Part shown: positions 20,589 to 20,952 of the stretch, piece after piece
How the letters are laid out: the number at the start of each line of letters is the position of its first letter
How positions within the stretch are numbered: position 1 is the stretch's first letter
IMG/VR virus record: IMGVR_UViG_2671180903_000008
Coordinates: 1-23,488 of that record
DNA from: a virus
Taxonomy: Duplodnaviria; Heunggongvirae; Uroviricota; Caudoviricetes
Direction: 5' to 3' (one strand)
Length of the DNA: 23,488 nt
Made by a program: the position numbers and the translations under genes
Notes under the pieces: generated by a model
Databases searched by the model: none
Told to the model about the DNA's origin: nothing
Seen by the model: only the letters and a program-made list of their open reading frames with translations

Positions 20589-20630
20589 TTTTTTTCGTGT
20601 TTTTTCAGTATGCGCATACTGTATATGCGA

Positions 20631-20690
20631 ACAGATACAACGTGCAACAATGAGCAACAATGTGGAACAACTACGAACAAGAGGCGAAAA
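20631..20690. repeat. Array of five to six 10-bp-phased repeats ending in AACAA
   Basis: acagatacaa cgtgcaacaa tgagcaacaa tgtggaacaa ctacgaacaa gaggcgaaaa: the ACAA/AACAA motif recurs every 10 bp. Confidence 0.6.
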
Positions 20691-20952
20691 AGCGTACGGA
20701 TTTATAAGTAGCTGATTTTTAATGCGTTACTGGTTTTTTATACACTAGCGAATCACTCTTTAAAGAGCGAGAAAAAAGGCATGAAACAATATTTTATGCC
20801 TTTGTATTAACATGAATTTAAAAGATTTTATTCTTACTGTTTCATTTTCTGTAAATCATACATCCTCAGTATTTGCCATTTATCACTCTAGCGGGAACAA
20901 TACGACACAATAAGACACCTGATGACTCTTTAAGAAACGAAAGGGGGCAATA

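What the first reader, a model, noticed from the sequence alone, without database searches (positions are those of the whole stretch)
20589..20952. Int-alpA intergenic region carries a 16-bp perfect palindrome, a helically phased AACAA repeat array and a second 12-bp palindrome
cagtatgcgcatactg (~20606-20621) is a perfect palindrome. From ~20631 to 20690 the motif AACAA recurs every 10 bp across five to six units, which predicts intrinsic DNA bending or a cooperative protein-binding array (iteron-like, or an IHF/integrase arm region). ctctttaaagag (~20756-20767) is another perfect palindrome, with a related actctttaa copy near 20924 just upstream of the AlpA gene. This density of structured repeats in 360 bp of non-coding DNA suggests an origin-like or master-regulatory region, or an unannotated small RNA.
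Basis: seen in the sequence. Interest (0 to 1): 0.5.

Follow-up and report, generated by a model that had tools for sequence, protein, structure and literature searches.

The report
Phased repeat operator upstream of alpA
The non-coding DNA between the integrase and alpA genes of this E. coli phage-satellite island is the control region of the island's master switch, and its ACAA repeats, spaced one DNA turn apart, match two repeat arrays in the island's attachment-site arms, so all three probably bind the island's own excisionase-like AlpA protein.

Summary
The 16-bp palindrome, the 12-bp palindrome and the 10-bp-phased ACAA array are all at the stated coordinates.

The region is the int-alpA spacer of a Gram-negative phage-inducible chromosomal island (PICI) of the EcCIEDL933/EcCICFT073 family, inserted between roxA and phoQ. 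Its EcCICFT073 ortholog is the published PalpA fragment, which AlpA alone activates and helper phages induce.

Only the ACAA array is conserved across the family. It has 5-6 in-phase units in 57 of 61 unique variants, invariant ACAA cores, variable linkers and whole-unit 10-bp indels. The palindromes are lineage-specific (16-bp) or at chance level (12-bp).

The new result is that the same decamer, TG(G/A)AACAA, also forms phased arrays in inverted orientation:
- in the attL arm upstream of int (19270-19303);
- in the attR arm of complete relatives.

In both arms it sits next to a doubled GGTGTAGT motif that is probably the integrase arm site.

AlpA models as an excisionase-type winged helix. 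My best reading (about 0.55) is that the arrays are cooperative AlpA operators linking autoactivation of alpA to excision. Origin, small-RNA and Q-like antiterminator readings are not supported. No binding experiment exists, and the promoter and the role of a conserved hairpin remain unresolved.

The parts
19178..19187 (.). [quoted passage not shown]
   Evidence: K-12 empty site reads GGGCATATTT between roxA and phoQ. The window sequence diverges from K-12 immediately after this block, and the same block recurs at attR of EcCICFT073.
19270..19303 (-). attL-arm array of 4 decamers (TTGT at 19270/80/90/19300); read on the - strand: TGGAACAAG, TGAAACAAG, GCTACAAC, TGCACAAA
   Evidence: One of only two 4-mer chains of 4 or more at 10-bp spacing in the window. 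Conserved in 14 + 17 loci at four different att sites, with one variant lacking exactly one 10-bp unit.
19313..19336 (+). Doubled 12-bp motif GGTGTAGTTAAT x2, probably the integrase arm-type sites
   Evidence: Found only at the two att arms of complete elements. It starts about 131-135 bp from the core, as reported for the doubled motif of helper-embedded PICIs.
19359..20588 (+). Tyrosine integrase gene (alternative GTG start at 19338)
   Evidence: Pfam Arm-DNA-bind_3, Phage_int_M and Phage_integrase. RefSeq orthologs start at the ATG.
20589..20605 (+). Invariant T-tracts (T7 CGTG T6) directly after the int stop codon
   Evidence: Invariant in the alignments. Highest predicted intrinsic bend in the spacer, 36-44 degrees per 31 bp by an approximate model.
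20606..20621 (.). 16-bp perfect palindrome, lineage-specific
   Evidence: Present in 35 of 61 unique variants and replaced by an ACAAC unit in the EcCICFT073 lineage.
20636..20681 (+). Distal array of five in-phase decamers with core ACAA (best units GTGGAACAAC, GAGCAACAAT), the proposed AlpA operator
   Evidence: 0 of 5000 shuffles. 5-6 units in 57 of 61 variants. ACAA columns invariant and linkers variable. One variant (DEC4E) gains exactly one 10-bp unit.
20713..20767 (+). Conserved block holding candidate promoter TTTAAT(20718)-17-TACACT(20741) and motif copy 1 AATCACTCTTTAA; includes the 12-bp palindrome
   Evidence: The promoter-like match is at the same aligned position in 56 of 56 sequences, but with a weak -35. 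Conservation map. The palindromic form is present in only 12 of 61.
20775..20803 (.). Conserved hairpin (arms 20775-20786 and 20792-20803) preceded by an invariant A6 run
   Evidence: The stem is kept through A-T to G-T to G-C changes. The + strand RNA fold has z = -2.96. The U-tract is conserved only on the - strand side.
20873..20901 (+). Candidate alpA promoter TTGCCA-17-AACAAT
   Evidence: TTGCCA-17-(A/C)ACAAT is present in 56 of 56 aligned variants despite an unrelated spacer sequence.
20895..20918 (+). Proximal phased array GAACAATAC / GACACAATAA / GACAC overlapping the candidate -10 and start site
   Evidence: repeat D7. It has 10-bp indels between variants. Its units resemble distal units of EcCICFT073 such as GACACAACGA.
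20922..20947 (+). Near-invariant leader ATGACTCTTTAAGAAACG (motif copy 2) plus the Shine-Dalgarno GGGGG; CUCUUU can pair with AAAGGG
   Evidence: ACTCTTTAAGAAA is present in 55 of 61 variants. The pairing appears in the minimum-energy fold but is not significant (z = -0.71).
20953..21141 (+). alpA, a 62-aa excisionase-type winged-helix protein
   Evidence: Pfam PF05930, E = 5e-17. Model pLDDT 86. Best structural matches are the GIsul2 excisionase 8C3T (TM 0.83), RdfS, Pukovnik Xis, TorI and BldC.

Best explanation
The 364-bp spacer is the control region of alpA, the master activator of a Gram-negative phage-inducible chromosomal island (PICI) of the EcCIEDL933/EcCICFT073 family.

Its functional core is the helically phased decamer array at 20636-20681, consensus about TG(G/A)AACAA every 10 bp. 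I propose this is a cooperative operator for the island's own 62-aa AlpA protein. AlpA is an excisionase-type winged-helix protein of the kind that lines up head-to-tail on direct repeats spaced one DNA turn apart.

The same decamer forms arrays in both attachment-site arms, next to the doubled GGTGTAGT motif that I take to be the integrase arm site. One protein would then do two jobs:
1. At the spacer array, and perhaps the weaker array over the promoter, it boosts alpA transcription. This is the published positive feedback.
2. At the att arms, it bends DNA so that the integrase excises the island.

Status of each step:
- Shown here: the arrays, their conservation and geometry, the fold of AlpA, and homology to the published PalpA fragment.
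- Shown in the literature for the ortholog: AlpA alone activates that fragment, and AlpA expression triggers excision.
- Inferred: that AlpA contacts the decamers, which promoter it acts on, and the order in which the arrays are filled.

The palindromes are not general parts of the switch. The conserved hairpin probably insulates alpA from int read-through or attenuates an upstream leader.
For: 1. Element identity: int plus AlpA, inserted between roxA and phoQ. The spacer is 100% identical in a complete capsid-forming PICI. It occurs in 863 of 5426 complete E. coli genomes.
2. EcCICFT073 has the same spacer family. The published PalpA-lacZ insert maps to L090 5128-5583, which is the whole spacer. 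AlpA expressed from pBAD activates it in DH5alpha, where no integrase is present.
3. Array statistics and footprint-like conservation, with whole-unit 10-bp indels.
4. The same decamer forms arrays at attL and at attR. The matching 8-mers TGGAACAA and TGAAACAA recur across the three sites.
5. AlpA has an excisionase-type winged-helix fold.
6. Precedents for such proteins binding phased repeats:
   - TorI has three sites with a 10-bp period.
   - P2 Cox binds six or more boxes, and RdfS binds both attP and its own promoter.
7. Covariation across four lineages:
   - L091 keeps GGTGTAGT, but the AlpA recognition helix changes and the array becomes GTTCG.
   - L093 has an unrelated integrase N-domain (23% identity) and an unrelated doubled motif. 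Its AlpA helix is similar and its array motif is similar (CTGTTTC).
Against: - No binding data exist for this AlpA. No paper in the searched library describes its sites.
- The distal array lies about 215-260 bp upstream of the best-conserved promoter candidate. The nearer candidate promoter has a weak -35.
- The proximal array overlaps the -10 and start site, where binding would be expected to repress rather than activate.
- In EcCICFT073, AlpA did not change Pint-lacZ although that fragment should include the attL array.
- In PICMI, AlpA did not change satellite transcription.
- The covariation rests on only four lineages, and integrase and AlpA diverge together in two of them.
- Tandem 10-bp-phased sites are also typical of integrase arm sites, as in lambda P'1-P'3.
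Confidence: 0.55

Rival explanations
1. The decamer arrays are arm-type sites for the integrase N-terminal domain. On this reading the spacer copy is an extra integrase-binding array, for example letting Int repress or insulate alpA, and the doubled GGTGTAGT motif would then be the AlpA site.
For: The arrays sit in both att arms in the same orientation. The integrase has an Arm-DNA-bind_3 domain. The helper-embedded PICI paper leaves open whether Int or AlpA binds the doubled motif. Lambda arm sites P'1-P'3 are tandem and about 10 bp apart (established knowledge).
Against: AlpA activates the spacer fragment without Int, and that fragment contains decamers but no GGTGTAGT. Four GGTGTAGT half-sites fit an integrase tetramer. 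GGTGTAGT is retained where the decamer motif changes along with the AlpA helix (L091). A similar decamer persists with an unrelated integrase and an unrelated doubled motif (L093). The spacer array is 1.45 kb from the core.
Confidence: 0.15
2. The spacer array is the landing site of a helper-phage protein. The most attractive candidate is the helper's own Xis/Cox-type winged-helix protein, which would switch on alpA as P2 Cox switches on the P4 late promoter upstream of vis. This is not exclusive of AlpA binding.
For: Helper phages induce PalpA independently of SOS. In EcCIMP1 they still do so in an alpA deletion, though to a lower level. P2 Cox activates P4 PLL through six or more phased boxes. 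Cross-talk between AlpA-family excisionases of a helper phage and a PICI has been shown. Lambda Xis sites (TATGTTGTG, TATGTAGTC) loosely resemble TTGT units.
Against: No helper inducer has been identified. The resemblance to lambda Xis sites is weak. EcCIEDL933 and EcCICFT073 respond to different helpers although their arrays are alike. Arrays in the island's own att arms point to an island-encoded binder.
Confidence: 0.1
3. The important element is an RNA. Either a small - strand RNA ends at the 20803-to-20775 terminator, or a + strand leader hairpin attenuates alpA. On this reading the repeats are incidental.
For: The hairpin is conserved with compensatory changes, and an invariant A6 run gives a U6 tract on the - strand. 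The + strand fold has z = -2.96. A - strand promoter-like site TTTACA(20855)...TAAAAT(20830) is present in 41 of 56 variants.
Against: There is no Rfam family. The - strand RNA would be only about 50 nt. Its promoter spacing is 19 bp and it is not conserved in all lineages. The strand signals conflict: G-U pairs favour the + strand, while the U-tract favours the - strand. This reading does not explain the arrays or their copies in the att arms.
Confidence: 0.06
4. The array is an iteron-type replication origin, or a site for a host response regulator that binds direct repeats (OmpR/ArcA/PhoP type).
For: Direct repeats lie next to AT-rich DNA (spacer 34% GC). Response regulators of that class bind 10-11-bp phased repeats (established knowledge).
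Against: The array is unchanged between elements with a RepA-type helicase and those with a primase-type replicase. The ori of this family was mapped downstream of pri-rep. The array motif changes between PICI lineages, and the arrays sit in att arms.
Confidence: 0.03

Closest known systems
PalpA region of EcCICFT073 / EcCIEDL933 (Gram-negative PICIs; Fillol-Salom 2018, PMC6092414; cf-PICI preprint 10.1101/2022.09.08.507074)
   Same: Same insertion site (roxA-phoQ), the same int-alpA arrangement, and a homologous spacer (66-100% identity across the family). The cloned EcCICFT073 fragment that AlpA activates and helper phages induce covers the whole spacer.
   Different: I found no mention of cis-elements in the main text and held supplements of PMC6092414, or in the parts I read of the other papers. 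The decamer arrays, their copies in the att arms and the candidate promoters are described here only by computation.
Winged-helix recombination directionality factors that double as transcription regulators (P2 Cox, 186 Apl, KplE1 TorI, ICEMlSym RdfS, lambda Xis)
   Same: A small excisionase-type winged helix. Several direct repeats one DNA turn apart. Sites both in an att arm and at a promoter.
   Different: Binding is not demonstrated here. Arrays occur in both att arms rather than one. The promoter-associated array is far from the best promoter candidate, and autoregulation is positive, whereas it is negative for Cox, RdfS and TorI-intS.
Satellite P4 late promoter PLL upstream of vis (the AlpA homolog), activated by helper P2 Cox
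   Same: A satellite master-regulator gene preceded by phased repeats through which the element is switched on by its helper.
   Different: There is no sequence similarity (no match in the phage collection). The helper factor for PICIs is unknown. P4 gene order and immunity differ.
Doubled att-arm motif of helper-embedded PICIs (PMC10111431)
   Same: GGTGTAGTnnnn x2 at about 131-135 bp on the int side of the core, with a co-oriented copy on the other arm.
   Different: That motif is absent from the spacer under study. The paper, in the passages retrieved, does not mention the adjacent decamer arrays.

Membership tests
Gram-negative PICI integration/regulation zone (int-alpA with PalpA) | Co-oriented tyrosine integrase and Phage_AlpA gene at the left end of a 10-16-kb island, followed by replication and packaging genes | tested here: met
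   Pfam. An identical spacer lies inside a complete cf-PICI with capsid, portal and terminase genes. EcCICFT073 has the same layout.
Gram-negative PICI integration/regulation zone (int-alpA with PalpA) | Spacer homologous to the experimentally studied PalpA fragment | tested here: met
   Alignment A1. Published primers map to L090 5128 and 5563, bracketing the whole spacer.
Gram-negative PICI integration/regulation zone (int-alpA with PalpA) | AlpA autoactivation and helper-phage induction of the promoter | not testable with these tools
   Shown only for the orthologs EcCICFT073 and EcCIMP1 in the literature.
Winged-helix RDF operator array (Xis/Cox/TorI/RdfS type) | The cognate protein has the excisionase-type winged-helix fold | tested here: met
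   pLDDT 86. Top PDB matches are 8C3T excisionase (TM 0.83, 38% identity), RdfS, Pukovnik Xis and TorI. phmmer to 8C3T gives E = 2e-6.
Winged-helix RDF operator array (Xis/Cox/TorI/RdfS type) | Three or more direct repeats spaced one helical turn apart | tested here: met
   Five units at exactly 10 bp, reached in 0 of 5000 shuffles. Conserved with unit indels.
Winged-helix RDF operator array (Xis/Cox/TorI/RdfS type) | Sites of the same motif inside the attachment site, beside the integrase arm sites | tested here: met
   attL array at 19270-19303 between the core and GGTGTAGT x2. attR arrays in L001 and L090.
Winged-helix RDF operator array (Xis/Cox/TorI/RdfS type) | Demonstrated cooperative binding of the protein to the repeats | not testable with these tools
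   No EMSA or footprint was found in the library.
Integrase arm-type sites | Located within about 150 bp of the att core | tested here: not met
   The spacer array is about 1.45 kb from the core at 19178-19187. The attL and attR copies do meet this feature.
Iteron-type replication origin | Repeats co-vary with, and lie next to, the replication initiator gene | tested here: not met
   The same array is present with RepA-helicase and with primase-type replicons. The published ori lies downstream of pri.
Known small-RNA or cis-regulatory RNA family | Match to an Rfam covariance model | tested here: not met
   No hit in the spacer at E up to 1.
Pseudomonas aeruginosa AlpA Q-like antiterminator system | A multi-helix protein (residues beyond 140, helices H1-H8) with an RNA-exit-channel ring, and a binding element between -35 and -10 followed by a terminator | tested here: not met
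   The protein here is 62 aa with a three-helix winged-helix model. There was no PDB sequence or fold match to the P. aeruginosa AlpA complexes. Family description.
LexA (SOS) box | CTGT-N8-ACAG conserved among relatives | tested here: not met
   Present at 20619-20634 in only 2 of 61 variants. alpA induction is reported to be SOS-independent.

The most novel reading that the evidence does not exclude
The phased array upstream of alpA is the sensor through which the helper phage is detected. The helper's own excisionase/Cox-type winged-helix protein, made when the prophage is induced, would bind the same decamers as AlpA and fire alpA. AlpA would then take over by positive feedback and spread to the identical arrays in the att arms to drive excision. 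That would name the long-sought inducer class of Gram-negative PICIs and make them mechanistic parallels of P2 Cox and P4.
Probability: 0.1. Interest if true: 0.8.

Novelty: new member of a known kind. Interest (0 to 1): 0.45.

Why it matters
Gram-negative PICIs, including capsid-forming ones, are widespread mobilisers of virulence and defence genes. Two published papers on AlpA-carrying satellites state that how the helper phage activates alpA is unknown, and I found no paper that describes AlpA binding sites.

This analysis gives concrete candidate operators with coordinates. It also links the transcriptional switch to the excision machinery through one shared motif. That makes the questions directly testable with gel shifts, reporter deletions and helper-gene expression.

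The underlying principle is already known from Cox, Apl, TorI and RdfS: a small excisionase-like protein lines up on phased repeats. The gain is therefore specific rather than conceptual.

Tried and rejected
- I guessed that the - strand terminator might belong to the EHEC sRNA Esr41. This was rejected because Esr41 lies in SpLE1/OI-43.
- I considered a P. aeruginosa AlpA-type antitermination mechanism. This was rejected because that protein is a different, larger, Q-like fold.
- A genome-contig scan with AlpA returned only 3 loci and was of little use.
- The phage collection holds nothing similar to the spacer.
- A word-indexed protein search gave only 19 AlpA relatives. Four lineages were usable for covariation.
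- CP4-57, the founding AlpA element, shows no comparable arrays and did not help.
- A formal pair count on the hairpin was not run. The MAFFT alignment puts the two lineages one column out of register, so I compared per-variant folds on both strands instead.
It was rerun with A5.
- The curvature estimate uses wedge parameters recalled from memory and is only indicative.
- I did not map O157 Sakai coordinates to look for published transcription start sites.

Full report
WHAT THE WINDOW IS

The window is E. coli DNA.
- 1-13266: late genes of a lambdoid prophage (by ORF order and size only).
- 14481-19119: potB, potA, pepT and roxA.
- 19338/19359-20588: a tyrosine integrase.
- 20953-21141: a 62-aa Phage_AlpA protein, followed by a 388-aa ORF.

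The island starts right after the block GGACATATTT at 19178-19187. In K-12 this block lies between roxA and phoQ.

The 364-bp int-alpA spacer is 100% identical in a genome where the element is a complete capsid-forming PICI. That element carries int, alpA, Rha, Icd-like, RepA helicase, SSB, capsid, protease, portal, HNH, TerS and TerL genes. The spacer is found in 863 of 5426 complete E. coli genomes at 66-100% identity.

O157 strains carry it at the same roxA site. The literature names an EDL933 island of this int-alpA type, EcCIEDL933, as the prototype capsid-forming PICI. I did not check that it is the roxA element. EcCICFT073, the prototype classical PICI, sits at the same site and has a spacer of the same family.

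CHECKING THE OBSERVATION

- The 16-bp palindrome is unlikely by chance (0.34 expected per shuffled window).
- The 12-bp palindrome is not unusual (7 observed in the window, 5.5 expected).
- The array is five in-phase units, with ACAA at 20637, 47, 57, 67 and 77. Four of these are AACAA. The AACAG at 20630 is out of phase.
- No dinucleotide shuffle of the spacer reached five in 5000 trials.
- In the whole window the only chains of four or more at 10-bp spacing are this array and a TTGT array at 19270.

WHAT IS CONSERVED

I aligned 16 E. coli variants. I then analysed 61 unique upstream sequences from E. coli, Shigella and IMG/VR loci.
- The ACAA cores are invariant while the 5-6 bases between them vary.
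- 57 of 61 variants have 5-6 in-phase units.
- Copy number changes by exactly one 10-bp unit.
- The 16-bp palindrome exists in 35 of 61 variants. In the EcCICFT073 lineage it is replaced by one more ACAAC unit.
- The 12-bp palindrome exists in 12 of 61. Its left half, AATCACTCTT, and the second copy at 20922-20939 are conserved.
- A shorter array, GACACAAY, lies at 20895-20918 and also shows 10-bp indels.
- A hairpin at 20775-20803 is conserved.
- Two promoter-like sites are at the same aligned position in all 56 full-length sequences: TTGCCA-17-(A/C)ACAAT at 20873-20901, and TTTAAT-17-TACACT at 20718-20746.

THE NEW FINDING

The reverse complement of the array motif recurs upstream of int. 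TTGT lies at 19270, 19280, 19290 and 19300, followed by GGTGTAGTTAAT twice (19313-19336).
- This arm is conserved in 31 loci integrated at four different chromosomal sites. One variant lacks exactly one unit.
- In complete elements the attR arm has three more units plus a co-oriented doubled GGTGTAGT.
- Units in the three places share an 8-mer, TGGAACAA or TGAAACAA.
- The doubled motif occurs only at the two arms, at the distances reported for helper-embedded PICIs.

Each element therefore carries one decamer motif in three arrays and a second motif only at att. The cf-PICI copy has a fourth three-unit array upstream of its capsid gene.

WHO BINDS THE ARRAYS

Published work on EcCICFT073 fused a fragment to lacZ that I mapped to L090 5128-5583, which is the whole spacer. 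AlpA from pBAD activated it in DH5alpha, where no integrase is present. AlpA expression alone caused excision and replication. The AlpA-responsive site is therefore inside the spacer, and the spacer holds decamers but no GGTGTAGT.

AlpA models confidently as a three-helix winged helix. Its best structural matches are excisionases: GIsul2 Xis 8C3T, RdfS, Pukovnik Xis and TorI, plus BldC. Such proteins line up on direct repeats one turn apart.
- TorI has three sites with a 10-bp period.
- P2 Cox protects 70 bp or more containing six or more boxes.
- RdfS binds both attP and its own promoter.

Four lineages give suggestive covariation.
- L091 keeps GGTGTAGT but has a different AlpA recognition helix and a GTTCG array.
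- L095 has nearly the same AlpA recognition helix as L091 and a GTTCA-type array, with a slightly altered doubled motif.
- L093 has an unrelated integrase N-domain and an unrelated doubled motif, but a similar AlpA helix and a similar CTGTTTC array.

I therefore assign the decamers to AlpA and GGTGTAGT to the integrase arm domain, with moderate confidence.

HOW IT MOST LIKELY WORKS

When a little AlpA is made, it nucleates on the distal array and raises alpA transcription (the published positive feedback). The same protein fills the arrays in the att arms and directs excision by Int.

Several points are not settled.
- Which promoter is used is unknown. The well-conserved TTGCCA promoter is about 215-260 bp from the distal array. 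The nearer TACACT promoter has a weak -35.
- Why a weaker array overlaps the -10 and start site is unexplained.
- What the hairpin does is unclear. Its + strand fold is more stable in most variants, with G-U pairs on that strand. A conserved U-run exists only on the - strand.
- How the helper phage starts the circuit is unknown.

The spacer is AT-rich (34% GC against 52% for int). Predicted intrinsic bending over the array is only moderate, about the 90th-97th percentile of the window in an approximate model.

REJECTED READINGS

- Origin: the array does not track the replicase type, and the published ori is elsewhere.
- Known RNA family: none found.
- Q-like antitermination as in P. aeruginosa AlpA: a different protein.
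- LexA control: the box-like sequence at 20619-20634 exists in only 2 of 61 variants.

VERDICT

This is a real, conserved, helically phased operator-like array in a region whose regulatory role is already published. I did not find its cis-elements, or their link to the att arms, described in the searched literature. It is a new member of a known kind. Interest is moderate because it makes open questions about PICI induction testable.

Noticed in passing
window 19188-19337: The attL arm has a fixed layout: core GGACATATTT, about 85 bp of AT-rich DNA, four TTGT decamers, CAACGATC, then GGTGTAGTTAAT twice directly before the int start. Islands at roxA, tqsA, abgR and yifB/ilvG share this arm almost base for base, although the host DNA on the other side of the junction differs between sites.
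   Followed up: yes
L001 22273-22302: The capsid-forming PICI that shares this spacer has a fourth three-unit array, TTTGTTCGTG GTTGTTCCAC GTTGTTCACT, about 210 bp upstream of its major capsid gene. It has no GGTGTAGT next to it. It may put the packaging operon under the same protein.
   Followed up: partly
window 20619-20634: CTGTATATGCGAACAG fits the LexA-box core CTGT-N8-ACAG. It depends on T20622, which is G in almost all relatives, so only 2 of 61 unique variants have it.
   Followed up: yes
window 21289-21343: A GC-rich hairpin, GCGCCCAG...CTGAGCGC, is preceded by A5 on the + strand, which makes it terminator-like on the - strand. It lies inside the 388-aa ORF downstream of alpA. It gave the only, sub-threshold, Rfam hit (sau-6072, 24 bits against a 50-bit cut-off). 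RefSeq annotates this stretch in relatives as incomplete Icd-like or hypothetical pseudogenes.
   Followed up: no
window 20922-20947: The near-invariant leader ACUCUUUAAGAAACGAAAGGGGG can fold so that CUCUUU pairs with AAAGGG of the ribosome-binding site. This is a possible translational brake on alpA. The fold is not statistically distinguished (z = -0.71).
   Followed up: partly
L095 2350-2477 and L096: In a distant PICI lineage (AlpA 65-66% identical) a 302-aa gene sits between int and alpA. The alpA-proximal DNA carries a twice-repeated palindrome, TAGTGATATCACT, instead of a phased array. Control of alpA is therefore wired differently there.
   Followed up: no
window 1-14480: The ORF order and sizes up to about 13266 look like lambdoid prophage late genes (terminase to tape measure; none was scanned against a protein family). 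A 230-aa - strand ORF (13426-14118) follows, with no Pfam hit. No intact potC-sized ORF precedes potB, so the prophage or a remnant appears to abut or disrupt potC, about 6 kb from the PICI.
   Followed up: no
window 20825-20855: Two promoter-like sites overlap back to back: TTAACA-16-TATTCT on the + strand (37 of 56 variants) and TTTACA-19-TAAAAT on the - strand (41 of 56). The - strand site points at the conserved hairpin and U-run and would give an RNA of only about 50 nt.
   Followed up: partly
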